64,000 bases of DNA, taken from the IMG/VR virus record IMGVR_UViG_3300047376_000546; one strand, written 5' to 3'. The DNA is from a virus. Both the position numbers and the translations under genes were made by a program. Below are positions 22,201-48,149 of the stretch, one piece after another (positions within the stretch are counted from its first letter, which is position 1; each line of letters opens with the position of its first letter). Below the pieces are notes generated by a model, which worked only from the letters and a program-made list of their open reading frames with translations, was not told the origin of the DNA and ran no database searches.

Positions 22201-22379
22201 TGGATTACCGAGCAGCATACACATGGCATACAGGTACTGATACAGCAACAACATCTGCAAATAGAACATATGCAGGGATGCAATCAACGAAGTCAGATGG
22301 TAATGGAATGCGTATTTTCACTCTAGTACGTGGTGGACCAATTAGACCAGAATATTCTGATTGGACAGTAAGACTATAG
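19230..22379 (+). CDS. Virion protein, paralogue 3 of the scaffold family (1049 aa)
   Basis: TYPITYRLTCTDHG, QASVDQDDDYAWFVIQRHVD, PVHCVYS, RFVVREYDVLKPWDYH, GMQSTKSDGNGMR. Confidence 0.7.
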   Translation: MASTLTQPFASAGFSVQRTEITSVMQPTYAEYFVSDGVTRHLPLKRLPDLGLADIASVRIFVNEFNELIADNYTGDDTYPDSGDFLFSDQQTYDPGSGVIQTPNGYILFNTGKIPTSGATIKIVYFINPENYTEYEDGVLRNLALDLCLHPYKNNFTSTFENQSQTVAPLTVTGATGVGATMIAEFSDAPVGSWLVDGSASTTLVGKRIREVSGTGIATIASITDGTTITATVDVPFSQVTAGDKVYSKGEWSLIIPADEVEVQPYNLIYPYETETSTTPISIDVNGQQDHTAVMKAIRRVGNLLVVESEKATDLLSSRSDINSVSEAIPTNLNLPSPVRQRRSPQKWRIRFYYDERDDYVHVNVGTKYQLLDNGDTTRGQDRDGTKKSVFRLPGELAEIYFAPGIEGAKAKAGFFRRQGKTSSDTNNTYPITYRLTCTDHGTSLFMFDQASVDQDDDYAWFVIQRHVDNSSGKIEFEDGKSPVHCVYSPSKRPFETSEQNAGYYSSFEKNLDFATTPFQTTTVSTDLQNIYDASGRKLKPGNQIDISIITDSLPIQANEYGSGINYSGPNAQKIYNTPTGTSASTKTVALQSVSGGGYVDDQATAQRTTNITTVNSYDYITVNQYDAAYNDKLGPAMLGLEIEEVVLLDTIDNDSVHAVLVEGVDYKFEIDSVTPAVYTGSTLTTQEMVSHKMSFLHPSGNPLEIGGVVFRNTTISSTNTNPTLGPDTTPKVRVKYRWKGAGYLNKYINPYGRQGDATAQLEDAARLNVFVENVELDHARNPYEYTVNSTGDVLWPANTASFQGTSLNTYVYSLPVDSVFLRESLSEGQVLKMQLQNYAEDPEAQNLYLIEVPEDPDFPKHWTDMHREAKGIYRFVVREYDVLKPWDYHVSAVIPQVDSPAIINPVEQLSITQDKTFVFNFPTPMASQRYIYPNSEMDLICFSGADSSTEGGITNVGTATSPKYDLDGEQDSSVGGGTAGTSTLKPSDALDYRAAYTWHTGTDTATTSANRTYAGMQSTKSDGNGMRIFTLVRGGPIRPEYSDWTVRL

Positions 22380-27700: not shown

Positions 27701-27908
27701 AATTTCAAAAGAAGAATATGAAAATCAACTTAAAATATATGAACAAATGAGATCGTTAGGAGACTTACCAGAGGCCATGGAATATTTGGAAGATATTTCT
27801 CCATTTAAATTAAATTGTGAAATTGATGTAAGTGAAGAAGATTTTTATAATTATTCCCAAGAAGTTAGAATAGTGAGAGGATATCCAATATATGCCAGCT
27901 GTAACTAG
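24789..27908 (+). CDS. Large hypothetical protein (1039 aa), probably structural
   Basis: Long ORF starting 1 nt after the previous stop. It has a possible putative-Ig-like segment (YEIIQGSGRLPECLEM...GRIG) and a short coiled coil (LQEIDII...IASLQAERSL). No family recognised. Confidence 0.6.
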   Translation: MPQFFTSGGVQTQIKTTKRWNYVFERDSSVTIEYYNLFRYTQDDGQTLEYASNAYETGGSEYIAEIFSTKVEIISTDVVSFNNIIEITDVGLDRYSETGIIGSIWNNLSRLDSIITDKSKLMELVTSNIGTDSKQFDLGISRDIVQNAISNYDTDDIIVSKLGDIGIFSKNIIQRIQNQVKSAQHLLSGDGEHILHGENSEFARYNLDQVTKMATIADSYGEFVDLVHAELFTRDESSLIKSNVKETNLLFQQIVPDNKIILGAKDTGEVTSKITYSSTTLDKDFELNLSYDLSKAKELHNSYAHLYNQEPDWIKSPSGLLITKPQDKIFNDLLYYQSPDDVVIQKNLYFGSPDITNVPINNYFKKFKSIQEPKGKFYAEQSDLVFRTEFEIRSSQDIIVPIKPYYSQPDKTYLYNYFYIDIDTDTTFGMVPQITPPTDISYIPDSNFAKTTATTNTNGKSLFKKQFGLFEFRGGRQIILDAVNIKNTGKYSVMDTQAVIFYDHNSAMYGGMYQEYVESPYEFVYSNNYIGISHYNQLKQIIIPHFKIESGHPRNGGSNAYGHDVIPVPRLDPSTKFIPFPGFLKESDGRPSGRHGRSFDQEYRIKQTVTGANNPSNTLYEFEYVDHDMDKDSGGIGDGKYNFTYEIIQGSGRLPECLEMVDQRYVRGRIGEVDEFLRKYSYESWVQEHGHYPLDYDYTDFELLTPRILKTGVLGINSTKGTLTYILENPLSDVNRFNVGEKVFQGSTHGIITDVLYEELYPIDLGDGLGEQPRTIVGLEVQNVFGEFEEMTKNIQYSYNNLNSLQEIDIIISDRQAELANETDPTEIERLTNEIASLQAERSLTGDYTILVVTGSNVSFDLKKIGVLRDNVVVENILFRQEIDTARGLRKIIDLEFPVHNNWSYDRDRFLFTSDELPEKLYYKGDYLDRIEWINKMREDGHFRFDNSENNIDVETLINNFKSEYEKGELAISKEEYENQLKIYEQMRSLGDLPEAMEYLEDISPFKLNCEIDVSEEDFYNYSQEVRIVRGYPIYASCN

Positions 27909-28935
27909 AAAAGATGACAACTGCACAGGACATGGATGTTTCCCACCAAGAGCGAATAATGGTGGCAGTGGTAATGTAAAAACAAATAGTAAACCCACCC
28001 ATAGAAAAGGTGATGGTTGGACACCACATGGATGCCCAAATGTACCACCACATGGTTCGTCTACTGCAGCTGGGTCTGCAACCGTATATGCAAACGGCAA
28101 GGCAGTTGCGCGAATAGGTGACCCTGTTGCGTGTGGTTCTGCTATTGCCCAAGGGAGTGGTAATGTATTTGCTGGAGATAGTGGAGAATCTTTCACCCCC
28201 CCAGAGTTCACATTTCCAGAATTTACACCATTCCCTGCCCCTAAATTAAGAGATGCGCCAGCATTATATCCTAGTAATATACAAACAGTGGATGATTCTG
28301 CAAATGCAAATCCTATTAACAACTCAGAACAAATAGAATCTACAAATGGCGAGAAACCAGAATATGAAGAATTGTCTAGTGGAATGTGTGGGGAAATGCC
28401 CCAAAGAAACCCCTATGAGGTCGCACAAAAGGCATTATCTATGGGAAATAGTGCATGGAAAGAAACTGGCAATAACCCAAACATTACTGCATTATGGGAT
28501 GAAATTGGATATCAAGGAAATCAATATGCAGATGAAACTGCTTGGTGTGCGGTCTTTGTAGGAGCAACCCTTAAAAGAAGTGGTAACAAATATCATAAAA
28601 CTGCAATGGCCCGTGGTTACGAATCATATGGTAAAGAAATACCATGGAATGAAATGCAGCCTGGCGATATAGTTGTAATGTTTAGAAATGGTAGGAGTTC
28701 TGGTAGTGGACATGTTGGGTTTGCGACAGGAAATTATACAAATAATACAGTTGATATGATAGGTGGAAATCAGGGTAACACTTTATCTGTAAGAACATAT
28801 AAGAGAAATAGTGGGTCTAGAGGTGTGTTAACCATTCGACGTGCAGTATCTTGTGAAGATGGAAAAACTCTTGCGCCGCAAGTAGGACAAGTAAATGCAC
28901 CAAAGTCCTCTGGGGTTGGTGGTCAAGTTACATAA
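27892..28935 (+). CDS. PAAR spike-tip domain fused to a TIGR02594/CHAP-like Cys-His peptidoglycan hydrolase domain
   Basis: The N-terminal 95 aa are a gp5.4-type PAAR domain (CTGHGCFPP, HRKGD, H...H, VARIGDPVACGS). The C-terminal domain has ETAWCAVFVG, PGDIVV, GHVGF and IGGNQGN. Confidence 0.85.
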   Translation: MPAVTRKDDNCTGHGCFPPRANNGGSGNVKTNSKPTHRKGDGWTPHGCPNVPPHGSSTAAGSATVYANGKAVARIGDPVACGSAIAQGSGNVFAGDSGESFTPPEFTFPEFTPFPAPKLRDAPALYPSNIQTVDDSANANPINNSEQIESTNGEKPEYEELSSGMCGEMPQRNPYEVAQKALSMGNSAWKETGNNPNITALWDEIGYQGNQYADETAWCAVFVGATLKRSGNKYHKTAMARGYESYGKEIPWNEMQPGDIVVMFRNGRSSGSGHVGFATGNYTNNTVDMIGGNQGNTLSVRTYKRNSGSRGVLTIRRAVSCEDGKTLAPQVGQVNAPKSSGVGGQVT

Positions 28936-33173: not shown

Positions 33174-36100
33174 ATGAGTAGAGCTATTCAAAGAAATGAT
33201 ATTTTTCAATTAGATGGGTATCGTTGGAACCGAAGAAGAGAACCAGATAAACCATTAATTACACAATTAGCAGAAGATTTAATGGACAATGGTTTTATAG
33301 ATGTTGGCCCAGAAGTCGTAAAAATTACAGTTAGTGATGCAGCTCTAACCAGATATATTGATAATATTATTGTGTACTATTATGATTCCAATACAAATAT
33401 TATTAATGAAGGGGCTCACGGATTAAGAAATGTTACGTCAGAAGGATATGACGGAACTTTTACAGAATGGAAAATGGATAATAATGATTTAAAAATTAAA
33501 CAAATCCAAGACGATCCTTATACTGGATTTGGCAACGATCACTGGGCAGATTATCTTTCAACATCGTTGCCTGGCTCCAAATCCTCCACTTTTAAAACAC
33601 AGTATCCTGGCGAAGATGCAACATATTTTGATAAGTTCTTAGGACCAAACGCCGAGTTATTTGCATATTTAAACCCAAACCCACAGAATCAGGATGCAGA
33701 CGGTAATTGGTTGAAAGTATTACCAAATGTACCTACTAGAAAGAAGAAGGCCGATGAACAGACAGGTTATTTTGGATTAAGTTTTATATCAGAAAGAGTT
33801 TATAGAAACGAATTTGCAAAAATTAAAAGACTTATTACTACTAGTGCAAGATATGTCGTTGCTTATCCAGACGTTGCAAGTGGCATTGATTCAAAAGGAA
33901 ATTTAAGAAATTATGTAGAAGAACTAGAACCTAGTGGTGTTATTAATCACCATTTTTGGTTTACAACATACAAAGATGAACAATTTTTCCCAGCCGATGT
34001 TACCGAACCTGCAAAATGGGAAGGTTTTATTGGGTTAAGTTCTGAGCCTGGCATATTACAGTATGGAGACACTTACGAGTTTACATTGACAAGTACAAGT
34101 CAAAAAACTTCTGCTTCAATTACAACACTAGATTCGGTTACGGTTGATAGTGATGAAGTCGAACCTTTTCTAGAAAAGGTTTATAATAGTTTTGTTAATT
34201 CTGCAATTGCAAATCCATTATCTGGTTATTTGACTCTTAGTGTAGACCCATCAAGAATTGGTATTATGGAAGGTTATGCAAACCAGAATTCTGTCGAACA
34301 AACTATGACGGTAAACAGAATTCCTTACGTAAAACAGTATGGAGCTACACCAACTGTTGGATTTCCATCTGGTTCAAACCAAAGTTTCTCTGGCCTCACC
34401 GAGCCTAAAATCGCCCAACACGGTACTGTAACCTATAATTCTGGATTTAAAATGAATTATAGAAATTTAAATACCGATCAACTTGGACTTAACACCGCCG
34501 GCTGGAGGTGGTATGAAGATTTCGGGCAATCGAGCCAGTTCAGATCTCCTGTCAGTGTTGGTGGCAAAACCCACTATATGGAGGGTTATGTACACAAACA
34601 TACTATTAGTGGGTTTGATGGTGCAGACCCTGGCGATACATTCGAGGTTAAGTTAACCAATTTGGTTGATGAATCTGCCGAAAAACCTTGGACTGCTGAT
34701 CCAATTGAACTTTCAATAACTTTCACAGCAAAGGTTCCTATGACTGCATTAGCATTAACAACTGCTATGGCTAATGAGATGAAACTAGATCCATATATTT
34801 CGCAATATATGTTTGTAAAAACTGGTACAAATTATATCGACGTAGAATATGCAGAAGATTCTAGTGCATATTTAAGAAGATCAAAAAAACGTACTGCCAC
34901 CGATGATAAGGGGTGGGGGTTATTTAATGCTAAGTCTGTCGCATATCAAACTGCGGTCACCGCTGGTAGATTCACCGCTGGCACTTTTGCTACATTTAAC
35001 CACGATTGGTGGACTATGGCAAACCTAACTAGCAGCAATCTATCCACACGTAAAAACTTCTTTGCATGGATAGAAAATTCCGTTGCGGCAAATATTTCAA
35101 CCACTTTTGCAACTGACGCGACTAGGTTTGGTACTGGTGGATTATTTCCATCCACTGGCACTATGGACGCAAATACCGAACAAGGTAGTATTAAATTTGT
35201 TAATCCTTACGCACATTATGGTCCAACTGTTCTAACCGATGGGTTGTTTGCAGAAGATGTTCCAGATTTGGCAAAGTTCGGTTCTTCGGTGACTTATACT
35301 GAGAATACTTTAGTCACAAGTGACCCATTAACTTTTAATTTCCAAACAACAAAAGAACCAGCAGTATCTAATGTTGGTAATATTAGGTTATCGTTCCCAT
35401 TATCAAGAGATATGGGCACTTTTGCAAATCCAGTTAATAATATTGGTTGGGAAGTTTTCCCTGCAATTCAAGGTAACAGCTCAGCATCAAATTATACATA
35501 CTCATATTATCAACAAATATTGAGTGATACCTCGGCGGATGTGAAAACAGAAAGACCAACAGGTCCAGAAATATCATTTGATTATGATAAGAGATATAGA
35601 CATCCAAATCAAACACATGGTAGTTTAGATTTGGGATTAACTAAGGCATCGGATTTCCAGTACAACACTTCTAATTTAGATATCGATTCTTTTGAATACG
35701 TAAGAGATTATTCAATGGGTCCAATTGTATTAGAAACATCTAATAGTTCACCACTATCGGGAACTGATGGAGATCAGGCTTGGAGAATTAGACTTAATGT
35801 TTCTAGAGGGTATGAAATCAAAGATGCGTCACCATATATTAACGAGGTTCATATCGAATTAGGAAATAATTCTGTAGACCCACGTTTAGTATCTGATAGA
35901 CAATTTGAATATTTACAATTACATATTGCAACAAAGTATCAATTACTAAGTAATGGTGATGTTACCGAAACACAAGGTGTAGATGTAACTAAACCGGCAA
36001 GAATAAGAGAGCCAGGGTTTCTTGGTGCATTAAGACCACAATATAGTGGATATGTACAATCAAATGTACATTTAATAAACCCATATACACTAAGGGCCCA

Positions 36101-37214
36101 ATTGGATGATGCAGTAGAATCAGAAATTAATATTAGTGCCGGTAGGGTTGGTATTGCAATGGATCAGGTAGAAGGGGTTGATACGTCTGGACTTGCGGAT
36201 ATTTTCGCCAATAATACTAGTGGTTCAGGTGTTAAAAATATCACATATGAAACTAGAGGTACTACTGCCGCTCCTGTGGTTGTTACAAAAGGATTACTTG
36301 AAGATGGAGAATATCGATACGAAGAACAATATTTAACTGGTTCTAGTACAGAATTAATATATGATACACCATATAATACTGGTAATATGCGTATTCAAAA
36401 AGGATTTTTTAGAAGAAGTGGAAAACAATTTTCGGATGTCGCACCATCATATCCTATGAGTTATTTCTTAACTATTGCAGATCATGGAATAGCATTTGCA
36501 GTGAGGGATCAGGCGTCATCATCAGAATCAGATGATAATGCATGGGTTGTTGTTCAAAGACATGTCGATTCTGTTACAGGAGAGCCTGATTTCACATCTA
36601 ATACGCAACCAGTTCATTGCATATATCAAACATCCGAACCACCAGTTCTTTGGTCAGATTATGGTATTTACTTTACAGATAGAGAAATCGATAAGAGACA
36701 AAGTTCTGTTGCATATCAAGGATTATATGACCGAGCAGGAAATTATGTTACGGATTTTTATGTTAATCCAGTTATTGCAGAGGAACTTGCTGCATTTGAT
36801 ATGGAAGGACAGGGTAGATTCCGTAGGTTTGTTGTACGAGAAAAAGATACATTAAAACCATGGGATAGACATGTTTTTGCAGGTCTTAATGAAACCGATT
36901 CACACTCTGTAATCAATCCATTAGAACAATTATCCTTGAATGATGATGGTCAGTTGGTTATCCAATTTCCTAACAGAATTGGTTCCCAAAGATATCTATT
37001 CACTGGAAAAGAGATTGATTTGATTGCATTCTGTGATGGTGGTTCTGTAGGACAAGATACACTAGTATCTAGTGATAGATTTAGTGATAGTGGACTAACC
37101 AATAAGACTAGAACTTACAAAGGTATGATGAGTACAAAAAGTTATGGAAATGGAATGCGTGTACTACTATTAACTGACGGGTGGGGTGTTGATAATTCCT
37201 ACCTTTCATCATAA
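33174..37214 (+). CDS. Virion protein, paralogue 4 of the scaffold family (1346 aa)
   Basis: SYPMSYFLTIADHG, DDNAWVVVQRHVD, PVHCIY, RFVVREKDTLKPWDRH, GMMSTKSYGNGMR, with a very large N-proximal insertion. Confidence 0.7.
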   Translation: MSRAIQRNDIFQLDGYRWNRRREPDKPLITQLAEDLMDNGFIDVGPEVVKITVSDAALTRYIDNIIVYYYDSNTNIINEGAHGLRNVTSEGYDGTFTEWKMDNNDLKIKQIQDDPYTGFGNDHWADYLSTSLPGSKSSTFKTQYPGEDATYFDKFLGPNAELFAYLNPNPQNQDADGNWLKVLPNVPTRKKKADEQTGYFGLSFISERVYRNEFAKIKRLITTSARYVVAYPDVASGIDSKGNLRNYVEELEPSGVINHHFWFTTYKDEQFFPADVTEPAKWEGFIGLSSEPGILQYGDTYEFTLTSTSQKTSASITTLDSVTVDSDEVEPFLEKVYNSFVNSAIANPLSGYLTLSVDPSRIGIMEGYANQNSVEQTMTVNRIPYVKQYGATPTVGFPSGSNQSFSGLTEPKIAQHGTVTYNSGFKMNYRNLNTDQLGLNTAGWRWYEDFGQSSQFRSPVSVGGKTHYMEGYVHKHTISGFDGADPGDTFEVKLTNLVDESAEKPWTADPIELSITFTAKVPMTALALTTAMANEMKLDPYISQYMFVKTGTNYIDVEYAEDSSAYLRRSKKRTATDDKGWGLFNAKSVAYQTAVTAGRFTAGTFATFNHDWWTMANLTSSNLSTRKNFFAWIENSVAANISTTFATDATRFGTGGLFPSTGTMDANTEQGSIKFVNPYAHYGPTVLTDGLFAEDVPDLAKFGSSVTYTENTLVTSDPLTFNFQTTKEPAVSNVGNIRLSFPLSRDMGTFANPVNNIGWEVFPAIQGNSSASNYTYSYYQQILSDTSADVKTERPTGPEISFDYDKRYRHPNQTHGSLDLGLTKASDFQYNTSNLDIDSFEYVRDYSMGPIVLETSNSSPLSGTDGDQAWRIRLNVSRGYEIKDASPYINEVHIELGNNSVDPRLVSDRQFEYLQLHIATKYQLLSNGDVTETQGVDVTKPARIREPGFLGALRPQYSGYVQSNVHLINPYTLRAQLDDAVESEINISAGRVGIAMDQVEGVDTSGLADIFANNTSGSGVKNITYETRGTTAAPVVVTKGLLEDGEYRYEEQYLTGSSTELIYDTPYNTGNMRIQKGFFRRSGKQFSDVAPSYPMSYFLTIADHGIAFAVRDQASSSESDDNAWVVVQRHVDSVTGEPDFTSNTQPVHCIYQTSEPPVLWSDYGIYFTDREIDKRQSSVAYQGLYDRAGNYVTDFYVNPVIAEELAAFDMEGQGRFRRFVVREKDTLKPWDRHVFAGLNETDSHSVINPLEQLSLNDDGQLVIQFPNRIGSQRYLFTGKEIDLIAFCDGGSVGQDTLVSSDRFSDSGLTNKTRTYKGMMSTKSYGNGMRVLLLTDGWGVDNSYLSS

Positions 37215-37232: not shown

Positions 37233-37616
37233 ATGACTGATGTTATACCATTAAAAGTAATTACAGACGCTGGGGGTGACTCTTACGCCCTCGGCGAGTT
37301 TACTGCAAGTGAAGCGGTTGGTTTGGCACATGGTGGTACAGGTGCCACTGATGCAGCAACAGCTCGTGTGAATTTGGGTCTGACAAATTTAACTATAGAA
37401 TTTGAAAGATATAATATTTCAACTCCTTCGGTGAGTTGGGTAATTACTCATAATAAAAACACAACACAATTCAGTGAAAAACTTTTCGATTCCAATGGAG
37501 ACCAATTTTACGCATATGTAGAAACATTAGATGCAAATTCTTTCAAGGTACACCTGTCAGAAAGTATAAGTGGTTATGTGGACGTATTTTTTGACGGAAC
37601 TTCATTAGTAACTTAA
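37233..37616 (+). CDS. Small fibre-associated protein
   Basis: The N-terminus LGEFT...GGTGA...AR-x-NL-x-L matches the 28954 ORF. The C-terminal WVITHNKNT module resembles the C-terminus of the 37680 ORF. Confidence 0.65.
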   Translation: MTDVIPLKVITDAGGDSYALGEFTASEAVGLAHGGTGATDAATARVNLGLTNLTIEFERYNISTPSVSWVITHNKNTTQFSEKLFDSNGDQFYAYVETLDANSFKVHLSESISGYVDVFFDGTSLVT

Positions 37617-37679: not shown

Positions 37680-40256
37680 ATGCCTAGATATGTAAAATTT
37701 CATGGTTTAGAGTTAGCAGATAATTCGTTTATTGAGAACTTACGAATTGAGAAACTTACCTCTGACCCAACGCCGTCTGAACCTGGCAGACTGTGGTACA
37801 ATACTACGGATAAAGTATTCAAATTTTCTTCTCTCGATTCTGGTGGGGCAATTATAGTTCATCAGGCCGTTTCATTAGATGAACTAACAGCAGAAGTTGC
37901 AACTTTAAATTCTACAATTACCACAGAAGTAACAGACAGAACAAATGCAGACTCGGCTCTGCAAACCCAGATTGATACATTAGAAACCGCACTAGATAAC
38001 GTAGAGGCATCCATTACCTTTGCAGTTTCTACTACATCTGGCGCATATGTTATAGACGGTGATAATAATCCTACACTTAAATTACAGCCAGGAATTACAT
38101 ATAAATTAGATTTAAATGCATCTGGACATCCCTTTAGAATTCTTACGGATGCAGCAAACCCTGCAACGGAATACAATGATGGTGTAAGTCACGATGACGG
38201 TGCTGGTACAGTTGTCACAGGAACTAATGCACAGGGCAAAGAGAGTGGTACATTAATTTTTAAAGTGCCGATGGATTCACCAGATTATTTGTATTATGTA
38301 TGTGACAATCATCCAAGTACAATGGTTGGTACTCTAAAGACAACATCATTCCCAGCAGAAGTCCAAGTAGAAATTGATGATATTGAAACTGGAGCTGGAC
38401 TAGAAACAGATGGATCTTATCTTGCCGATAATACAACAAATTATCTTACTGCTGCAACATCTTTAAAAAATGCTGACTTTCTATTAGATAGTGCGGTACA
38501 AGGTGTACAAAATGAATTAGACAGTACTCAGAACGGGGCAGGACTTGGTTCGAGTGGTACTTACAGTGCAGATTCTGGTACAAACTATTTAACTACTGCA
38601 ACATCTTTAAAAAACGCAGATGCAACTTTAGACGGACAATTAAAAACCACAAACGATAATTTATCCGCAGAGATTACAGCAAGAACAAATGCAGATGTTA
38701 CAATCAATACTGCAATTACAAATTTACAATCTGAATTAGATGTCACACAAACTGGATCAGGTCTTGCCACGGACGGCACTTTCAGTGCAAACTCTAGTAC
38801 AAATTATCTTACTGCAGCGACTTCATTAAAGGATGCAGATGAAAGACTTGATACTGCATTAAATTCTTTACAATCAGAAGTTAACGCAACACAGACTGGC
38901 GCCGGATTAGGTACTAATGGTGCATATACTGCAAATTCAGCTTCTAACTATATTACTGGTGCAACAGATTTAACTGATGCAGATGATTTATTGGATGCTC
39001 AAATTAAAACTACTACAGATAGTATTACTACTAAAGTTAGTAAATCTGGTGATACTATGTCTGGCAATTTGGACATGGGCAACAATAGAATTATTAGTGT
39101 TGCAAATCCTACCGACCCGACAGATGCGGCGAACAAAGAATACGTCGATAGTGTTGCAACTGGTTTAGATGTAAAAGAATCTGTTAGAGTTGCAACTACT
39201 TCGAATATTGCAAGTTTATCAAGTGTAACATCAATTGATGGTGTAACATTAGTCGATGGTGATAGAGTACTTGTTAAAGACCAAAGTACTGGTTCTGAAA
39301 ATGGTATTTACACTTATACACTATCTACTACAACTCTGGCCCGATCTGATGACGCAGATACTGGTTCTGTATTAACTTCTGGTACATTTACATTTGTGGA
39401 AGAAGGTACACTAAATGCAGATAATGGTTATGTACTTGTAACAGACGGTTCTATTACAGTTGGTACAACATCAATATCATTTGAACAATTCTCTGGTGCT
39501 GGACAAATTATTGCTGGGGCCGGTATTCAAAAAAGTGGTAACGAATTATTTCTAAACTTTGGTGCTGGTGTTTCAGAATTACCTTCAGACGAAATTGGTA
39601 TCGATGTACGTGCAGATGGTGGTTTGATGTTGACTGCAGATGGTTCGACAGATTCGGTCGCCACTGGTGCAAATCTAGCAATCAGAATAGATGGTAGTTC
39701 ACTTTCAACATCATCAAATGGTTTAAAACTTGATTCATCTATCACTACTAGTATTAGTGATAACACAACTGCAATTGCAACCTTACAAACCGAAGTAGAC
39801 GCAGTTGAAACTGCATCTGGATTAAATACCGATGGTACTTACGCTGCACCATCTGGTACAAATTATATTGATACAGCAACTAGTATTGCAAATGCACACG
39901 TATTATTAGATTCTGCAGTTAAAGATAGTTATGATACTCTAGAATCTCTTGTATTAGATTTGGAATCAGATTTAGCGACAGAACAGGCACAGAGAATTTC
40001 TTCCGATAGTTCAATTAGAACAGATGTTAATGATTTAAGATTTACATATCAATCAACTGCAACTGCAACAACACATACAGTTTCGCATAACTTGAATACA
40101 AACTTTCTTATAATCCAATGTATGGTATTGGGAGATGACGGCTTGTATGCAAACGATGTTGTACCAATAGAGGAAACTGATTCAAATACTCTTACTGTTT
40201 ATCTCACAGAATCTAGACATGTGCGCGTATCAGTAATGGCAATGACTGATATTTAA
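37680..40256 (+). CDS. Tail/neck fibre protein with a cupredoxin-like domain and coiled-coil/loop repeats
   Basis: Coiled-coil segments, five GAGL-x2-DG-Y...TNY...ATSL-x2-AD-x2-LD repeats, and a DAANKEYVD...VRVATT...DGDRVLVKDQ fibre module. The cupredoxin motif is GHPF...YYVCDNHPSTM. Confidence 0.75.
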   Translation: MPRYVKFHGLELADNSFIENLRIEKLTSDPTPSEPGRLWYNTTDKVFKFSSLDSGGAIIVHQAVSLDELTAEVATLNSTITTEVTDRTNADSALQTQIDTLETALDNVEASITFAVSTTSGAYVIDGDNNPTLKLQPGITYKLDLNASGHPFRILTDAANPATEYNDGVSHDDGAGTVVTGTNAQGKESGTLIFKVPMDSPDYLYYVCDNHPSTMVGTLKTTSFPAEVQVEIDDIETGAGLETDGSYLADNTTNYLTAATSLKNADFLLDSAVQGVQNELDSTQNGAGLGSSGTYSADSGTNYLTTATSLKNADATLDGQLKTTNDNLSAEITARTNADVTINTAITNLQSELDVTQTGSGLATDGTFSANSSTNYLTAATSLKDADERLDTALNSLQSEVNATQTGAGLGTNGAYTANSASNYITGATDLTDADDLLDAQIKTTTDSITTKVSKSGDTMSGNLDMGNNRIISVANPTDPTDAANKEYVDSVATGLDVKESVRVATTSNIASLSSVTSIDGVTLVDGDRVLVKDQSTGSENGIYTYTLSTTTLARSDDADTGSVLTSGTFTFVEEGTLNADNGYVLVTDGSITVGTTSISFEQFSGAGQIIAGAGIQKSGNELFLNFGAGVSELPSDEIGIDVRADGGLMLTADGSTDSVATGANLAIRIDGSSLSTSSNGLKLDSSITTSISDNTTAIATLQTEVDAVETASGLNTDGTYAAPSGTNYIDTATSIANAHVLLDSAVKDSYDTLESLVLDLESDLATEQAQRISSDSSIRTDVNDLRFTYQSTATATTHTVSHNLNTNFLIIQCMVLGDDGLYANDVVPIEETDSNTLTVYLTESRHVRVSVMAMTDI
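38385..39010 (+). repeat. Four degenerate ~45-70-aa fibre repeats (a fifth near 39806-39920)
   Basis: ETGAGLETDGSY...TNYLTAATSLKNAD, QNGAGLGSSGTY...TNYLTTATSLKNAD, QTGSGLATDGTF...TNYLTAATSLKDAD, QTGAGLGTNGAY...SNYITGATDLTDAD. Confidence 0.85.
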
Positions 40257-40544: not shown

Positions 40545-40773
40545 AACTATACACCCAACTCAAATAGTTGCATGGATACAAAAAATTGAAAAAAATCTTG
40601 ATAATTTTAATTTCGATAATAAATCCGCATCTAAAGAAGAAAAATTAGAATATATTAGATATCAAAGACATTTATTTGAAATTATAAAAATGGCCTTGTC
40701 TGGTAAAGTATATTTTGTAGGTACTGCACAAGACATTAGATTTAGAGAAGATGACGATGACACAGAAAACTAG
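40537..40773 (+). CDS. Hypothetical protein (78 aa)
   Basis: Overlaps the previous ORF by 8 nt, consistent with translational coupling. No family recognised. Confidence 0.55.
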   Translation: MSRTIHPTQIVAWIQKIEKNLDNFNFDNKSASKEEKLEYIRYQRHLFEIIKMALSGKVYFVGTAQDIRFREDDDDTEN

Positions 40774-41743
40774 AACATTAAATATGCAAAACGTAAGAGT
40801 CAAGGGTACTTTGACTTTTGCAACAAATCATTTAAATTTTCCAATGTATCCAGAAGTTGGGGAAACTGCACTAGTACGTGGTGCGTTATACATCTATACA
40901 AAACTAGATGGAATTAAAACATGGTATCAACTTACAGAAAAAAGAGATACTTACTTTCACATTCAAAATAATAATGAAAGAAAATGGATTATCAATCATA
41001 ATTTTGGTACTGATGCAAATTCATTTTTTGTATATATTGAAGATAGTTTGACAACTAATTATGATGTAACATATAAAGATGATAATAGAATTGAATTGAC
41101 ATTTAGAGAACTGGCCAAAGGTAGCGTTACAGTATTCAAATATCCAGAAATTAACACATTGGACATAACTGCAGATACCGCACATGTAAAGAAAAGTTTT
41201 AAATGGTCTACAGGATTTTCAAGTATTACAAAATTTCCACATCCATATTTACACAATGGTATGGTTACTATTGCAAAAGATACAGGATTGTTATATTATT
41301 CTGATGGTAGAAAATGGAATAAAGTTATAACAGAATCTAATACAAACGAGTTAAAATCTAATATTGTCGATCAAATTAGGCCTTTATTTAACTCAATAGA
41401 CTATAAAAATATCCAAAATAAACCAGACTTGACAACCCTAAAAATTGATTGGAAATATCTAAAGAATAAACCAGAATTGGGTACTAAAGATTACAAAGAA
41501 TTATCAAATACTCCAAAACTGATATATTCCAGAATACAAAAGGTTGAAACTCAAAGTAGGTTGAAGTATACATTTGTTGATAATGAGGGAAAAAATTTAT
41601 TTATAAATAGTTCATGGATACAGGTATTTGTTGATGGTAAAATTTTATGTCCAACAAAATATACATTATTAAATGAATACGAATTACAATTTACGAATGG
41701 ACAGGAATTGAATTCTGAAATCCAAATCGTTACAATTGGTTAA
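40751..41743 (+). CDS. Hypothetical fibre-related protein
   Basis: It has a KWIINHNFGT module, three (D)Y/W-x-x-I/L-x-NKP fibre-type repeats, and a C-terminal IQVFVDG...Y...LQF small beta domain. Confidence 0.55.
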   Translation: MTMTQKTRTLNMQNVRVKGTLTFATNHLNFPMYPEVGETALVRGALYIYTKLDGIKTWYQLTEKRDTYFHIQNNNERKWIINHNFGTDANSFFVYIEDSLTTNYDVTYKDDNRIELTFRELAKGSVTVFKYPEINTLDITADTAHVKKSFKWSTGFSSITKFPHPYLHNGMVTIAKDTGLLYYSDGRKWNKVITESNTNELKSNIVDQIRPLFNSIDYKNIQNKPDLTTLKIDWKYLKNKPELGTKDYKELSNTPKLIYSRIQKVETQSRLKYTFVDNEGKNLFINSSWIQVFVDGKILCPTKYTLLNEYELQFTNGQELNSEIQIVTIG

Positions 41744-41752
41744 GGTAGAGAT

Positions 41753-42940
41753 ATGGCAGATTCAAATTTAACAGGTTCTATTAACGATTTAGTTGCAAGA
41801 TGTACATCATTAATTCCTACTTCAACAGCAAAAGAACTTTTTGATATATCTTTATGTTTAAAATCTATTAATCGAACAGAAAACAACACCGTAGAAAATT
41901 TAATTTCTACTAGAGTAGGTAATTTATTATCTACTGCAACTCCATTAGAAAAACACTATCTTTCTAGGGCAGTTTATAATCTGTTGGAAACAAATGTAGT
42001 AGTAGGTGTAGATTTACCTACTAAAACTGGACACACAAATAAATTATTAGAAACAAATGGTATATCAACAAGTTGGAGTAAAGTAGATTCTACGGATGTA
42101 ACTGGTTTAGATTTTACTGCAGCTGCTGATGGCAAAGCACTAGGATTTGATGGTACAAATATTTCTGCAGTTGATTCTCCATTCTCAAGTATAGAAACAA
42201 TTGCATCATCTGCAAATTTAGTATCTGGCACATCTGGACAATTTATTTATGCAATTGCAGAAGACACATATCATTATTGGAATGGTAGTGCATGGCAGGA
42301 AATAACTAAGGCCGCAGCATATAATTGGATAGATGCAAATACTATTTGGTATGCATCATTTGACACAAATAGAAATGAACAAATATCAAATTACGGTAAT
42401 GGTGGAGTCAATCAGGTAAATGCAAATACTGCTGTAGTCAGTGCAACTAGTACTGGTATATCAGGAAATGCACTAAAAAATATCAATTCGGGTGGAGTGC
42501 AATATGACTTCTCATCATTTTCGATGGGGTCAAATTTTACAATAGAATTCTGGGGATATATCGATACTCTCGGAAGTACTCCAGCATACTGGTTTGACAC
42601 AGGAATGGTTGAATATAAAACAGACATGATCAATTTTGATGGTGCTGGTGGAAGTAGTACAAATGCATCAATAACCGCCTCAACATCGAGTGTAACTGGG
42701 CAGTGGGTTCATCATGCAATTGTATTTTCTGGATATAATTCTGGTGGGTGTAAAGTTTACCACAATGGTAGTCAAGTCGCGTATTTAAATCCAAATGCAG
42801 GAACACCTAATATTAGTAGAGTAAAATTATATTTACACGAAACCTCAAATAATGGTATCGATTCTGCGTACATAAAACATTTTAGAATTAGTAATGCCGT
42901 AAGATATACCACAAACTTTACACCACCGGCGATAGAATAG
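41753..42940 (+). CDS. 'MADSNL' anchor-family fibre 1 with C-terminal LamG/ConA-like domain
   Basis: The N-terminal ~80 aa are shared with the 42951, 43510 and 45102 ORFs. The C-terminal NFTIEFWGYI...GQWVHHAIVF...KVYHNG...YIKHFRISNAVRYTTNFTPP is the LamG pattern. Confidence 0.75.
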   Translation: MADSNLTGSINDLVARCTSLIPTSTAKELFDISLCLKSINRTENNTVENLISTRVGNLLSTATPLEKHYLSRAVYNLLETNVVVGVDLPTKTGHTNKLLETNGISTSWSKVDSTDVTGLDFTAAADGKALGFDGTNISAVDSPFSSIETIASSANLVSGTSGQFIYAIAEDTYHYWNGSAWQEITKAAAYNWIDANTIWYASFDTNRNEQISNYGNGGVNQVNANTAVVSATSTGISGNALKNINSGGVQYDFSSFSMGSNFTIEFWGYIDTLGSTPAYWFDTGMVEYKTDMINFDGAGGSSTNASITASTSSVTGQWVHHAIVFSGYNSGGCKVYHNGSQVAYLNPNAGTPNISRVKLYLHETSNNGIDSAYIKHFRISNAVRYTTNFTPPAIE

Positions 42941-45101: not shown

Positions 45102-48100
45102 TTGGCAGATTCAAATTTAAACAGTTCTATTTCTGCACTAGTAAGTGATTTACAGAATCAAATTGCAACCGCGTCTGTAACTGAATTACTTCTTATAACT
45201 AGAGCTGCAAAGTCAATTGGGCACACAGAAAACACTGCAATCGAAATTGCGGTAAATACTCGCGTCAACCAATTAACGTCCACTGCTACAGCAGATGAAT
45301 TAGAAAAACTCGCACGAGCTGTTGATAACTTAACAGACACGACCAGTGCGGCAACTGCAACAACCTCTATAAGTGACCATACTGATGTAGATACAACCAC
45401 TACCCCACCAACTGATGGCCAGGCCTTGGTGTGGGAAAATTCTACGGCATTATGGAAACCAAATGATATTGCGTCAGGTTCTTACACTGATATATTACCA
45501 GATACAACTGCAACTTATGACTTAGGTAGTCCTTCAAAAACTTGGGTTGATGTATATGCATCAAATATAAAAGGTCTTGATGCACCCATAAATGATACTG
45601 ATGCTGCAAGAAAAAAATATGTAGACGATTTATTTGTGAGTGCGGTAGTAACTGTAAATTCTGTTAATGGTTATCAGGGATCGGTGTTACTTACCACAGA
45701 TGATGTAGATGAAGGAATTTATAATTTATATTATGATGACACAAAAGTAGATTCACACTTAAATCAAACTAGTGCAACCAACAATCAAATTCTTTCTTGG
45801 AATGGAACTGATTATGCATGGGTTGAAAATTCGTCATTCAGTACCGTATCAGTAACAACTTCTAGTGGAAAATTCTATATTGATGGCGAGCAACAATCGA
45901 TTGCAACATTACAACCTGGCCGAACTTACAGATTTGACCAGTCAGCTGCATCAAACAACTCACACCCACTTAGGTTTTCAGAAGTTTCCGATGGAACACA
46001 TGCTGGTGGGGGTGCAACAGAATACACAACAGGTGTAACTGTCAATGGTACTGCTGGTGTTGCAGGTGCTTATGTGGAGATTGTAGTTACGAATGCTACG
46101 CCAAGGTTGTACTATTACTGTGCGAATCACACAGGCATGGGTGGCAAGGTCAGTGTTGGTAAAGAATTGTTTGTTGAACGTATCACATCAGATACTTGGA
46201 TTACAGGGCCTATTCAAACTACCACAGTGAATGTAGGTACTGGTGGGTCTATCAGCGCATCACTTGCGACATTGGACTTTACTAATACTACGGTAAATTT
46301 TAGTGGTGCATCTATAGCTGGACTTAGTAATTCCGATGTTGGTTTGGCAAATATTGCAGATAATGCTCAGGGCGTAGTTGTCACCGGCCGGGTTGCTGCT
46401 GGTAGTTTAGAATTAGGTACAGGCGGTTCTATCAACGCGCAACTTGGAACATTAGACTTTACTCATACTACAGTAAATTTTAGTGGTGCAAACGTAGGTG
46501 GACTTGGTGATACCATTCAAGATGAGGTAGATTTTCATCTGAATAAAAATAATGCGGGTGGTTCAACTATTATATCAGATGGGCAAGTACTAGGTTGGGA
46601 TTCTACAGGTGGAGCGCAAGGTACGGGCGATTACGAGTGGATTGATCCAAGAGTTATTACAGGACATATAATTCCAGATGCAAACGAAACATATGATTTA
46701 GGTAGTTCTACCAATAAGTTTAGAGATTTATATTTGTCTGCAGGCACTTTATATCTTGGAGATAAAACATTTTCTCAAACTGATATTTTAGATTTTGACC
46801 TTACAATTGATCCAGAAACTTTCACAATCAATGTTGATGCACCAGACGCCGGTGGTGGAATGGATTGGAAATGGACTTGGGATGCTGGTAAGGTTGCATA
46901 TACAAGACTTAAAATTACTAATGCATTACAGTCAAATATCCCACTTTATAATGATGGTACATATATTGTAAATAACTTCGCAGCACATGATTTGCACGGT
47001 GGAATGACGCAAACACATAAAATATACCTCAAGTGGGTAGACGGGCCAGGCACAGATAATCTTGTTTCTTGGACAACTTCTACTTTGAATATAACTGGTG
47101 TAACTCATCCAGATATCAATGGTGGACAATCCACAGAAGTGCAGAGATTGAATATTAATGTTCCCTCTACAATCACACCACCAACACTTAATAACCCTGC
47201 AATTTCATATAATATTTCTTTCGCAAATGCTGGCGCATATACATTTGGTGGCTCGGCGCATGGAGATAATCCAGCATTAAATCCTTTATATCGCGGCGGT
47301 ACATATACTTTCAATCTAGATGCTAGTCTTACTGGACATCCTTTCTATCTTACCACAGATGATGGTACAAACTATGTTTCTGGTACATATGTCGGAGAAT
47401 ATACAGATGGCGTCACTGGTTCTAGGAATGAAAGTGGCACTCTTGTGTTTACTGTTCCAGCTAATGCGCCGGATACATTATATTATCAATGCGGCATTCA
47501 TGGCGCAATGAGAGGTACAATTACAATAAAAGACCTTGTGGTGGAAACAAATGCAGATAATAACTATATTCTATATTTTCAACATGACCAACAAGGTCAT
47601 AAAACTCCAGTAGAAATAAAACCAGTGCCAGTAATTGAAGATGTAGATAATCTAACACTTGTATGGGATGGAACAGCAAGTAAATTTAAAGCAAAAGACA
47701 TGGGCGAATATATGGATGATACAGTCCAATTTCAGTCTAAGTTAGAAAAGGTTATTAACGAATCTACTGTAGTTGAAACTGGTTTAAATGATACAGAAGT
47801 TTCCACAAAAATTAAAGACGAAACAATATTCAATATAAACCTACATCAAGGGGGTGCTCTGCAAGTACACACTGGTACTAAGAGATGGTATGCACCATAT
47901 AATTTACAGGTAACAGGAATTACTTCAAGACTTGGAACTGCTGCAGATGCAACTGTTGGTGTTGATATCAAAAAGAATGGAGTTTCAGAAGAAACATACT
48001 CTTTTGGTACAAATGTAACAACTACAACAATTGCTGATCAGACAATTAATATGAATGCAAATGACTATTTAACCGTTGATGTTACGAGTATTGGAACAAC

Positions 48101-48149
48101 AAATACTGGAGAAGATCTTTACGTCCAGTTTACATATAAAAAAGTATAA
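45102..48149 (+). CDS. 'MADSNL' anchor-family long fibre 4 with two cupredoxin-like domains (TTG start)
   Basis: Anchor domain as in the 41753 ORF. Fibre motifs DGQALVW, P-D-x3-YDLGS (twice) and DAARKKYVD. Cupredoxin motifs SHPL...YYYCANHTGM and GHPF...YYQCGIHGAM. C-terminal DYLTVDVTSIG beta domain. Confidence 0.75.
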   Translation: MADSNLNSSISALVSDLQNQIATASVTELLLITRAAKSIGHTENTAIEIAVNTRVNQLTSTATADELEKLARAVDNLTDTTSAATATTSISDHTDVDTTTTPPTDGQALVWENSTALWKPNDIASGSYTDILPDTTATYDLGSPSKTWVDVYASNIKGLDAPINDTDAARKKYVDDLFVSAVVTVNSVNGYQGSVLLTTDDVDEGIYNLYYDDTKVDSHLNQTSATNNQILSWNGTDYAWVENSSFSTVSVTTSSGKFYIDGEQQSIATLQPGRTYRFDQSAASNNSHPLRFSEVSDGTHAGGGATEYTTGVTVNGTAGVAGAYVEIVVTNATPRLYYYCANHTGMGGKVSVGKELFVERITSDTWITGPIQTTTVNVGTGGSISASLATLDFTNTTVNFSGASIAGLSNSDVGLANIADNAQGVVVTGRVAAGSLELGTGGSINAQLGTLDFTHTTVNFSGANVGGLGDTIQDEVDFHLNKNNAGGSTIISDGQVLGWDSTGGAQGTGDYEWIDPRVITGHIIPDANETYDLGSSTNKFRDLYLSAGTLYLGDKTFSQTDILDFDLTIDPETFTINVDAPDAGGGMDWKWTWDAGKVAYTRLKITNALQSNIPLYNDGTYIVNNFAAHDLHGGMTQTHKIYLKWVDGPGTDNLVSWTTSTLNITGVTHPDINGGQSTEVQRLNINVPSTITPPTLNNPAISYNISFANAGAYTFGGSAHGDNPALNPLYRGGTYTFNLDASLTGHPFYLTTDDGTNYVSGTYVGEYTDGVTGSRNESGTLVFTVPANAPDTLYYQCGIHGAMRGTITIKDLVVETNADNNYILYFQHDQQGHKTPVEIKPVPVIEDVDNLTLVWDGTASKFKAKDMGEYMDDTVQFQSKLEKVINESTVVETGLNDTEVSTKIKDETIFNINLHQGGALQVHTGTKRWYAPYNLQVTGITSRLGTAADATVGVDIKKNGVSEETYSFGTNVTTTTIADQTINMNANDYLTVDVTSIGTTNTGEDLYVQFTYKKV
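46236..46505 (+). repeat. Two ~90-bp in-frame direct repeats, 180 bp apart
   Basis: GTGGSISASLATLDFTNTTVNFSGASIAGL (46236-46325) and GTGGSINAQLGTLDFTHTTVNFSGANVGGL (46416-46505). Confidence 0.85.

What the first reader, a model, noticed from the sequence alone, without database searches (positions are those of the whole stretch)
38020..38345. Blue-copper (cupredoxin-like) domain with a full ligand set embedded in a virion fibre
Inside the 858-aa fibre, between coiled-coil segments, is a ~105-aa beta domain. It reads YKLDLNASGHPFRILT...GTLIFKVPMDSPDYLYYVCDNHPSTMVGTL (His codon 38127, Cys 38301, His 38310, Met 38322). Seen: the His...Cys-x2-His-x3-Met arrangement. Established: this is the type-1 copper ligand geometry of plastocyanin/amicyanin-type cupredoxins. 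Inference: the particle displays Cu-binding or redox-active domains on its fibres. Possible roles are engaging a host Cu-uptake or outer-membrane redox protein (a copper analogue of the iron 'Trojan horse' idea), scavenging Cu, or structural metal. Similar motifs occur in other marine phage fibres, but I know of no demonstrated function.
Basis: partly seen in the sequence, partly recalled or inferred. Interest (0 to 1): 0.75.

Follow-up and report, generated by a model that had tools for sequence, protein, structure and literature searches.

The report
Blue-copper-type domain on phage fibre
A fibre protein of an uncultured ocean phage carries a small domain with the fold and all four metal-binding residues of blue copper proteins such as plastocyanin. 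The same unnamed module is common in fibres of ocean phages, so these virus particles probably carry bound metal, most likely copper, for a purpose nobody has tested.

Summary
Residues 113-222 of the 858-aa fibre (window 38016-38345) have His150, Cys208, His211 and Met215 at the stated codons.

- **Fold:** an AlphaFold2 model (pLDDT 94.6) is a cupredoxin. All top PDB matches are cupredoxin domains (Z about 10, rmsd 2.1-2.5 A).
- **Homology:** a family profile finds almost only blue copper proteins in the PDB.
- **Ligands:** among 206 homologous domain segments, 185 keep the full His/Cys/His/Met set. When Cys is lost, the histidines are lost with it.
- **Copies:** a second fibre-like protein (45102-48149) holds two more intact copies.
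- **Distribution:** 324 phage records carry the module, all from cyanophages, pelagiphages or marine viruses. So do exported lipoproteins and surface proteins of aquatic bacteria and archaea. Several relatives pass the cut-off of the uncharacterised Pfam family PF25489; the window's copies do not.
- **Literature:** I found no paper on the module in phages.

Metal identity, redox activity and biological role remain untested. My best reading is a metal-locked (probably copper) knob on the fibre. A true redox role is possible. No evidence supports the copper 'Trojan horse' idea.

This scan has noted the same module on other DNA about 60 times.

The parts
37680..40256 (+). 858-aa virion fibre gene (P0001)
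   Evidence: ORF list and translation. PHROG matches to tail fibre and virion structural families. It lies in the baseplate/fibre/sheath/portal module of a T4-like marine myovirus.
37875..38000 (+). Long alpha-helix (aa 66-107) before the domain; probable coiled-coil stalk
   Evidence: AlphaFold2 on aa 55-300 gives helix 12-53 of the model at pLDDT 82-94. A 3-4 hydrophobic spacing is visible in the sequence.
38016..38345 (+). Cupredoxin domain (aa 113-222)
   Evidence: Family HMM E 2e-34. AF2 pLDDT 94.6 with eight canonical strands. Foldseek and VIA-align return only cupredoxins, Z 10-10.7.
38127..38129 (+). His150 codon (CAT), first ligand, just before strand 4
   Evidence: His in 197/206 homologous segments. 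Aligned to the type-1 His of Cu nitrite reductase 6hbe.
38301..38303 (+). Cys208 codon (TGT), thiolate ligand at the end of strand 7
   Evidence: Cys in 195/206 segments. Aligned to plastocyanin's ligand Cys. One of only two Cys in the protein.
38310..38312 (+). His211 codon (CAT), second His ligand in the strand 7-8 loop
   Evidence: His in 192/206 segments. Aligned to plastocyanin's ligand His.
38322..38324 (+). Met215 codon (ATG), axial ligand
   Evidence: Met in 195/206 segments. Aligned to plastocyanin's ligand Met.
38184..38240 (+). Inserted beta-hairpin (aa 169-187) with a fifth conserved His (His171, codon 38190); marks a subfamily
   Evidence: 44/206 segments carry the insert and His is kept in 40/44. 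Invariant in fibre orthologues and population variants. Role unexplained.
45102..48149 (+). Second fibre-like protein (1015 aa, P0153) with two more cupredoxin modules
   Evidence: Its only two cysteines are the two ligand cysteines.
45843..46157 (+). Cupredoxin copy 2 (P0153 aa 248-352): His288 (45963), Cys340 (46119), His343 (46128), Met346 (46137)
   Evidence: HMM domain E 2.3e-18. Ligand coordinates. Spacing C-x2-H-x2-M.
47205..47534 (+). Cupredoxin copy 3 (P0153 aa 702-811): His746 (47337), Cys797 (47490), His800 (47499), Met803 (47508)
   Evidence: HMM domain E 4e-29. Ligand coordinates. Spacing C-x2-H-x2-M.

Best explanation
Residues 113-222 of the fibre are a true cupredoxin (blue-copper-type) domain. 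It belongs to a very large, functionally untested family related to Pfam PF25489. That family is used as a module in fibres and baseplate proteins of marine phages and in exported surface proteins and lipoproteins of aquatic bacteria and archaea.

Shown: the fold; the four canonical ligands in their canonical structural positions; and strong, correlated conservation of those ligands.

Inferred:
- Each domain holds one metal ion, most likely copper, bound by His150, Cys208, His211 and Met215.
- Both chain ends of a cupredoxin lie at the pole opposite the metal site. The domain should therefore stick out sideways from the helical, presumably trimeric shaft with its metal site pointing outward.
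- My committed reading of its role (about 45%) is a metal-locked, very stable accessory knob that helps the fibre survive in, or stick to surfaces in, oxic seawater. It is not an enzyme or the primary receptor-binding tip.
- A one-electron redox role (about 30%) is the main alternative.
For: - **Fold:** AF2 pLDDT 94.6 and pTM 0.87. The top 50 Foldseek PDB hits are all cupredoxins. VIA-align gives Z 10-10.7 and rmsd 2.1-2.5 A over 91-108 residues against Cu nitrite reductase, rusticyanin, AcoP and laccase domains. Swiss-Prot models matched are MauL, plastocyanins, rusticyanin and auracyanin.
- **Sequence homology:** the family profile against the PDB returns almost only blue copper proteins (6hbe 6e-5, plastocyanin 2plt 6e-4, auracyanin, rusticyanin, amicyanin). 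Cys, His and Met align to the known ligands.
- **Conservation:** 2482 representative proteins match at E<=1e-3. Of 206 segments, 185 are H/C/H/M. With Cys present, the two His are kept in 194/195 and 191/195 segments; without Cys, in 3/11 and 1/11. 187/206 domains have exactly one Cys.
- **Within this fibre lineage:** ligands are invariant in fibre orthologues down to 54% identity and in 14 population variants.
- **Within the window:** all three copies are intact although only 26-40% identical to each other.
- **Cellular relatives are exported:** 64/74 have signal-like N-termini, 43 with a lipobox. This is the normal compartment of cupredoxins.
- **Not the variable tip:** the domain is less variable (10.9% of sites) than the flanking coil and repeats (19-21%).
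- **In-line insertion in trimeric shafts:** the module sits after a long helix here and inside collagen-like repeats in P-SSM2.
Against: - No metal was measured, and the tools return no coordinates, so ligand convergence in 3D was not checked directly.
- Phage fibres fold in the host cytoplasm, where free copper is extremely low. Canonical cupredoxins are loaded outside the cytoplasm. Virions could therefore carry zinc, or be empty until they meet seawater (my knowledge, not tested).
- In known biology, intact type-1 sites serve electron transfer. A purely structural type-1 site would be unusual, and the 95% conservation of the weak axial Met fits redox tuning better than mere stapling.
- About 5% of copies have lost the site and apparently still persist.
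- The window's own copies reach no Pfam threshold.
Confidence: 0.55

Rival explanations
1. Redox-active copper site. The fibre displays working type-1 copper centres that accept or donate single electrons at the host surface or in seawater. Possible uses are sensing a living, reducing cell surface, docking on a host redox protein, or dealing with reactive oxygen.
For: The full ligand set, including the axial Met, is about 90% conserved. A few relatives replace Met by Phe in a shortened loop, which is the natural way of raising potential in laccases (established knowledge of type-1 sites). Every known intact type-1 site is an electron carrier. By canonical cupredoxin topology, the metal pole should point away from the shaft (inference).
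Against: A virion has no metabolism and no known electron partner. No redox or copper-handling gene is conserved next to cellular homologues (at most 9 of 80 loci share any neighbour, all housekeeping). Type-1 sites change shape very little on reduction, so they make poor switches (established knowledge). Nothing was measured.
Confidence: 0.28
2. The same site is occupied by zinc or left empty. The domain is a plain Ig-like spacer or adhesin whose ligands are kept only because the fold needs them.
For: Assembly is cytoplasmic. Cupredoxins made in the cytoplasm are commonly recovered as zinc or apo forms (my knowledge). Phages often decorate virions with beta-sandwich modules. Eleven of 206 copies have lost Cys and still persist.
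Against: Met is a poor zinc ligand yet is 95% conserved. Ligand loss is all-or-none, which implies the four work together. A lone free thiol exposed to oxic seawater would be a liability if unliganded. Cysteine is rare here: 0.38% of residues, and the only Cys of P0153 are the ligands.
Confidence: 0.15
3. Copper 'Trojan horse' or scavenging. Fibre-bound copper is bait for a host copper-uptake receptor, or the virion sequesters copper.
For: There is a conceptual analogy with iron bound by HxH motifs in T4 gp37 and the Ferrojan horse hypothesis (as cited in PMC11705849). The module is restricted to marine phages among 50,697 phage records.
Against: Nothing here points to a copper receptor. The module also occurs on cell-surface proteins of unrelated bacteria and archaea, so it is not phage-specific. 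The domain is not in the variable or tip part of the fibre. Known hosts of module-bearing phages (Prochlorococcus, SAR11) are not known for outer-membrane copper receptors (my knowledge).
Confidence: 0.04
4. Chance motif in a non-cupredoxin beta domain.
For: The window's domain has no Pfam hit.
Against: See: homology, fold, ligand conservation and the shuffle control all contradict this.
Confidence: 0.01

Closest known systems
Pfam PF25489 'At5g54830-like domain' (uncharacterised; named after an Arabidopsis cytochrome b561 / DM13 / DOMON protein)
   Same: 58 of 121 family members give hits, and whole relatives P0004, P0013, P0011 and P0017 score 34.8-50.9 bits against a cut-off of 27. Those relatives match the window's domain by phmmer at E 2e-36 to 2e-21.
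   Different: The window's three copies do not reach any Pfam threshold. No function is published for the family: no paper mentions PF25489, and papers naming At5g54830 only list the gene.
Small type-1 blue copper proteins: amicyanin, plastocyanin, pseudoazurin, rusticyanin, AcoP, auracyanin (Pfam PF00127, cupredoxin clan)
   Same: Eight-strand Greek-key sandwich. His before strand 4, Cys at the end of strand 7, His and Met in the 7-8 loop. The family consensus loop C-x2-H-x2-M has the amicyanin spacing.
   Different: Only 14-25% identity. This copy has the spacing C-x2-H-x3-M with a Pro. The residue after the first His is Pro (195/206), where plastocyanin has Asn. It is a module inside a virion fibre made in the cytoplasm, not a free periplasmic or lumenal electron carrier. 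No partner is known.
Cupredoxin domains of copper nitrite reductase and multicopper oxidases
   Same: Best structural matches (Z 10.7, rmsd 2.3-2.4 A) and best profile hit (6hbe, 6e-5). The first His aligns with the type-1 His.
   Different: No type-2 or trinuclear site residues, no partner domains and no catalytic context.
Iron-binding HxH motifs of T4 gp37 and the 'Ferrojan horse' hypothesis (Bartual 2010 and Bonnain 2016, as cited in PMC11705849)
   Same: The idea that tail fibres of marine phages carry bound trace metal.
   Different: Different metal, fold and coordination. Neither fibre protein here has any HxH motif.
Ig-like, FN3 and collagen accessory modules on phage virions
   Same: A small beta-sandwich shuffled among fibre and baseplate proteins at varied positions, often in tandem, and shared with cell-surface proteins.
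   Different: Those modules have no conserved metal site.

Membership tests
Cupredoxin superfamily (type-1 blue copper fold) | Eight-stranded Greek-key beta-sandwich | tested here: met
   AF2 pLDDT 94.6 with strands in canonical order. All top PDB matches are cupredoxins, Z 10-10.7 and rmsd 2.1-2.5 A.
Cupredoxin superfamily (type-1 blue copper fold) | His (before strand 4), then Cys-x(n)-His-x(m)-Met at the strand 7-8 loop | tested here: met
   His150, Cys208, His211 and Met215. They sit at model residues 42, 100, 103 and 107 relative to strands 44-47, 95-100 and 108-113. They align to the ligands of plastocyanin and Cu nitrite reductase.
Cupredoxin superfamily (type-1 blue copper fold) | The four ligand side chains converge on one point in 3D | not testable with these tools
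   Structure prediction returns no coordinates. Support is only indirect, from topology and alignment.
Cupredoxin superfamily (type-1 blue copper fold) | Binds Cu with a band near 600 nm and a small parallel hyperfine EPR splitting | not testable with these tools
   Needs protein chemistry.
Pfam PF00127 Copper-bind (plastocyanin/azurin family) | Score at or above the Pfam gathering cut-off | tested here: not met
   No hit for P0001 or P0002 even at E<=1. 25/121 relatives hit at E<=0.1, best 7.4e-5. This is superfamily-level kinship only.
Pfam PF25489 At5g54830-like domain | Score at or above the gathering cut-off (27 bits) | tested here: inconclusive
   The window's copies give no hit. Close relatives pass at 34.8-50.9 bits and are linked to the window's domain at phmmer E down to 2e-36. 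Membership is transitive, not direct.
Ferrojan-horse type HxH iron sites of tail fibres | Repeated His-x-His motifs along a trimeric fibre | tested here: not met
   No HxH in P0001 or P0153.

The most novel reading that the evidence does not exclude
Marine phage particles carry dozens of working blue-copper redox centres on their fibres and baseplates. This phage would have three modules in two fibre proteins, so tens of sites per virion if the fibres are trimeric and six-fold. The phage would use one-electron chemistry at the cell surface or in sunlit seawater as part of infection or particle survival. Given phage numbers in the ocean, virions would also be an unrecognised pool of strongly bound copper.
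Probability: 0.25. Interest if true: 0.85.

Novelty: new variant of a known kind. Interest (0 to 1): 0.62.

Why it matters
Blue copper sites are textbook electron carriers of respiration and photosynthesis. None is known as part of a virus particle. Here an intact site is conserved in fibre and baseplate proteins of the most abundant ocean phages, including cultured Prochlorococcus, Synechococcus and Pelagibacter phages. Public records call these proteins only 'hypothetical' or 'tail fiber'.

If the sites are loaded with copper, virions become a new class of copper ligand in seawater and a new kind of metallo-virion. If they are redox-active, infection or decay of marine phages would have a chemical dimension that has not been studied.

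The question is directly testable with existing phage isolates and a 12-kDa recombinant domain.

Tried and rejected
- **Pfam** on the fibre, the domain and the second protein gave no usable hit.
- **Single-sequence PDB search** gave only a weak laccase hint (E 0.41) and spurious beta-propeller matches. A family profile was needed.
- **The search for related loci** with the 121-sequence alignment failed for lack of a conserved stretch. A 25-sequence subset worked.
- **The word-indexed protein search** found only 7 close fibres and no names.
- **No whole genome is held**, so 'own genome' searches were impossible.
- **Gene neighbourhoods** of 80 cellular loci showed no conserved partner. The best cluster is in 9 loci, and all clusters are housekeeping genes: methyltransferase, UmuC-like polymerase, SDR, sulfatase, thiolase, acyl-CoA dehydrogenase, ABC ATPase.
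- **Swiss-Prot fold search** did not bring up At5g54830 itself in the top 30, so the plant link rests on Pfam scores only.
- **Eight literature searches** found nothing on this module in phages. They covered cupredoxin, plastocyanin-like and blue copper combined with tail fiber, cyanophage and virion, plus Ferrojan with copper, PF25489 and At5g54830.
- **Recent duplication of the three window copies** is rejected. They are 26-40% identical to each other and closer to copies elsewhere.
- **Recent capture of the phage or host plastocyanin gene** is rejected. Plastocyanin is only a distant profile hit, whereas cellular lipoprotein homologues are 38-48% identical to the family alignment used as the query.
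Full report
**1. The observation**

The + strand ORF 37680..40256 encodes an 858-aa protein.
- 38127 CAT, His150
- 38301 TGT, Cys208
- 38310 CAT, His211
- 38322 ATG, Met215

The spacing is His...Cys-x2-His-x3-Met. In all six-frame ORFs of the window, the C-terminal half-motif C-x2-H-x(2-4)-M occurs three times. Residue shuffles of the + strand proteins give 0.048 on average. All three occurrences lie inside domains that a family HMM detects independently. This is not a chance pattern.

**2. Fold**

I aligned the 118-aa segment (aa 109-226, P0002) with 120 homologous segments (A1). AlphaFold2 on that alignment gave pLDDT 94.6 and pTM 0.87, with eight main strands in cupredoxin order.

The ligands fall in the textbook positions:
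- His150 (model residue 42) precedes strand 44-47.
- Cys208 (residue 100) ends strand 95-100.
- His211 and Met215 (residues 103 and 107) lie in the loop before the last strand, 108-113.

Structure searches agree:
- Foldseek against the PDB returned only cupredoxins in its top 50: AcoP, rusticyanin, the cupredoxin domains of Cu nitrite reductase, pseudoazurin, auracyanin, plastocyanin, azurin and amicyanin.
- VIA-align gave Z 10-10.7 at rmsd 2.1-2.5 A over 91-108 residues.
- Among Swiss-Prot models the best matches were MauL, plastocyanins, rusticyanin and auracyanin.

The tools return no coordinates. I therefore could not measure whether the four side chains converge.

**3. Homology and ligand conservation**

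Pfam finds nothing in the window's protein. An exhaustive phmmer search of 1.84 billion cluster representatives found 2482 proteins at E<=1e-3, often with 2-15 tandem copies.

A profile of A1 searched against all PDB sequences returned almost only blue copper proteins: nitrite reductase 6hbe (6e-5), plastocyanin 2plt (6e-4), auracyanin A, rusticyanin, pseudoazurin, azurin and amicyanin. Cys, His and Met aligned to the known ligands, and the first His aligned to the type-1 His of nitrite reductase.

In 206 aligned segments the four positions are His 197, Cys 195, His 192 and Met 195. Further detail:
- 185 segments have the full set.
- Five have His/Cys/His with Phe replacing the axial Met in a shorter loop.
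- Eleven lack Cys.

Loss is correlated. With Cys present, the two histidines are kept in 194/195 and 191/195 segments. Without Cys they are kept in 3/11 and 1/11 (Fisher p 2e-11 and 4e-13, not corrected for phylogeny).

187/206 segments contain exactly one cysteine, the ligand. In the 1015-aa neighbour protein the only two cysteines are the two ligand cysteines.

The ligands, and a fifth histidine (His171), are invariant in fibre orthologues down to 54% identity. They are also invariant in 14 population variants of this fibre. In those variants the domain is less variable (10.9% of sites) than the helical and repeat flanks (19-21%).

The usual family loop is C-x2-H-x2-M, the amicyanin spacing. 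This copy has one extra residue, a Pro.

**4. Context**

The window is the baseplate/fibre/tail module of an uncultured T4-like marine myovirus. It encodes baseplate wedge proteins, a PAAR-lysozyme fusion, sheath at 55903-58200, tube, and portal at 58801-60357. The nearest relatives are Pelagibacter myophages HTVC008M and Mosig and the cyanomyoviruses, at 66-70% nucleotide identity.

The fibre is known only from metagenomes, where it is labelled 'hypothetical protein'.

A second fibre-like protein (45102-48149, 1015 aa) has two more intact modules:
- 45843-46157, with ligand codons 45963, 46119, 46128 and 46137
- 47205-47534, with ligand codons 47337, 47490, 47499 and 47508

The three copies are only 26-40% identical to each other. 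Each is closer (47-75%) to copies in other proteins. They are old, separately maintained modules rather than recent duplicates.

AlphaFold2 on aa 55-300 places a 42-residue helix (aa 66-107) before the domain and helical segments after it.

**5. Distribution**

tblastn with the domain against 50,697 phage records hit 324 records: Synechococcus 259, Cyanophage 41, Prochlorococcus 19, marine virus 3 and Pelagibacter 2.

I checked four cultured phages by translation, and all four ligands are present in each:

| Phage | Protein and position |
|---|---|
| P-RSM4 | 'gp9' baseplate protein, C-terminal domain |
| P-SSM2 | PSSM2_028, domain inserted between collagen-like Gly-Pro-Thr repeats |
| P-GSP1 (podovirus) | PRQG_00035, N-terminus |
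| Pelagiphage Baldr | tail fibre, C-terminus |

BFVD models of cyanophage fibre and baseplate proteins match at TM 0.65-0.87. None is named as a copper protein.

The module is not phage-specific. A scan of species-representative genomes confirmed 131 loci. Examples:
- Polaribacter irgensii has a 266-aa CHRD-cupredoxin lipoprotein, and Flavobacterium glaciei has a protein with three CHRD domains plus the cupredoxin.
- Bdellovibrionales and Methylotenera have stand-alone 135-162-aa lipoproteins.
- A Halobellus archaeon has a surface protein longer than 1866 aa.

By a crude heuristic, 64 of 74 complete ORFs begin with a signal-like segment, 43 of them with a lipobox. Cellular members are therefore exported, as cupredoxins normally are.

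No neighbouring gene is conserved.

**6. Relation to named families**

Fifty-eight of 121 members hit Pfam PF25489 ('At5g54830-like domain'), and 25 hit PF00127. Whole relatives pass the PF25489 cut-off (34.8-50.9 against 27 bits). The window's copies do not.

PF25489 has no published function that I could find. The family is therefore catalogued but uncharacterised, and its presence on phage virions is unannotated. As far as eight full-text searches show, it is also undescribed.

This scan has noted the same theme about 60 times on other DNA. I reached each of these points from my own calls before reading the notes.

**7. How it most likely works**

Shown: the fold, the ligand set, its positions, its conservation and correlated loss, display on fibre proteins, and export of cellular relatives.

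Inferred from established cupredoxin chemistry:
- The four residues bind one metal ion in a type-1 geometry.
- The soft axial Met and the lone thiolate point to copper.
- Both chain termini of a cupredoxin lie at the pole opposite the metal site. An in-line insertion in a helical or collagen-like trimeric shaft should therefore project the metal pole outward.

Two readings of the role then compete.

(a) A metal-locked, very stable knob that serves fibre stability or non-specific adhesion. This fits the modular, Ig-like usage, the absence of any partner, and the low variability.

(b) A redox-active site. This fits the fact that every known intact type-1 site carries electrons. It also fits the retention, and occasional Phe substitution, of the axial ligand.

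I put these at about 45% and 30%.

Virions may therefore carry zinc, or acquire copper only after lysis.

Nothing supports a copper 'Trojan horse'.

**8. Verdict**

The structural interpretation is supported. The functional ideas are untested. This is a new variant of a known kind: a blue-copper-type module used as a virion part. It is directly testable with cultured phages and a small recombinant domain.

Noticed in passing
window 38184-38240 (P0001 aa 169-187; His171 codon 38190): The fibre's copy belongs to a subfamily (44 of 206 segments) with an extra beta-hairpin, G-L-[ST]-H-x(4-8)-T-G-x2-A-Q-G-K. The hairpin carries a fifth His that is conserved in 40/44 segments and invariant in orthologues. 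It could be a fifth ligand, a second site or purely structural; this is unexplained.
   Followed up: partly
family-wide; window 38130-38132: The residue after the first ligand His is Pro in 195/206 segments (G-H-P-F), where plastocyanin has Asn. This may remove a backbone NH...S(Cys) hydrogen bond and shift the site's properties (interpretation from memory).
   Followed up: no
P0011 (three copies) and P0036 (two copies), metagenomic relatives: Five domains have C-x2-H-x-F with no axial Met, like the three-coordinate high-potential sites of fungal laccases.
   Followed up: no
L040 3747-5282 (Flavobacterium glaciei); L065 4449-5249 (Polaribacter irgensii): Flavobacterial lipoproteins fuse one to three CHRD domains, each with an H-P-A-H-I-H motif, to a C-terminal cupredoxin of this family. 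This may be a two-metal-site surface protein of unknown function.
   Followed up: partly
L005, L011, L053, L060, L067, L076 (marine Alphaproteobacteria, OM43, Gammaproteobacteria MAG/SAG): Conserved proteins of about 430 aa carry two cupredoxin copies, have no signal peptide, and have an N-terminus resembling calcium-binding repeat (RTX-like) proteins. They sit in a chromosomal context next to UmuC-like, SDR and thiolase genes and may be type-I secreted.
   Followed up: no
L084 3054-4733 (Prochlorococcus phage P-SSM2 PSSM2_028): The cupredoxin module is inserted directly between collagen-like Gly-Pro-Thr repeats of a tail-fibre-like protein.
   Followed up: partly
window 13573-15321, 15387-19175, 19230-22379, 33174-37214: Four large paralogous virion proteins share a C-terminal region matching phrog_12249, which is labelled 'tail sheath'.
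   Followed up: no
window 27892-28935: A 347-aa protein has a PAAR domain at its N-terminus and a region matching baseplate hub / tail lysozyme at its C-terminus.
   Followed up: no
window 41753-42940 and 45102-48149: The N-terminal ~80 residues of the 1015-aa cupredoxin protein resemble those of the 395-aa ORF at 41753. This suggests a shared attachment domain for different fibres (seen).
   Followed up: no
window 40035-40214 (P0001 aa 785-845) and ORF 40751-41743 (aa 28-126): The fibre's C-terminal ~75 residues and the N-terminal part of ORF 40751 both match phrog_21918. By eye, the 127-aa ORF 37233-37616 ends in a similar small beta domain.
   Followed up: no
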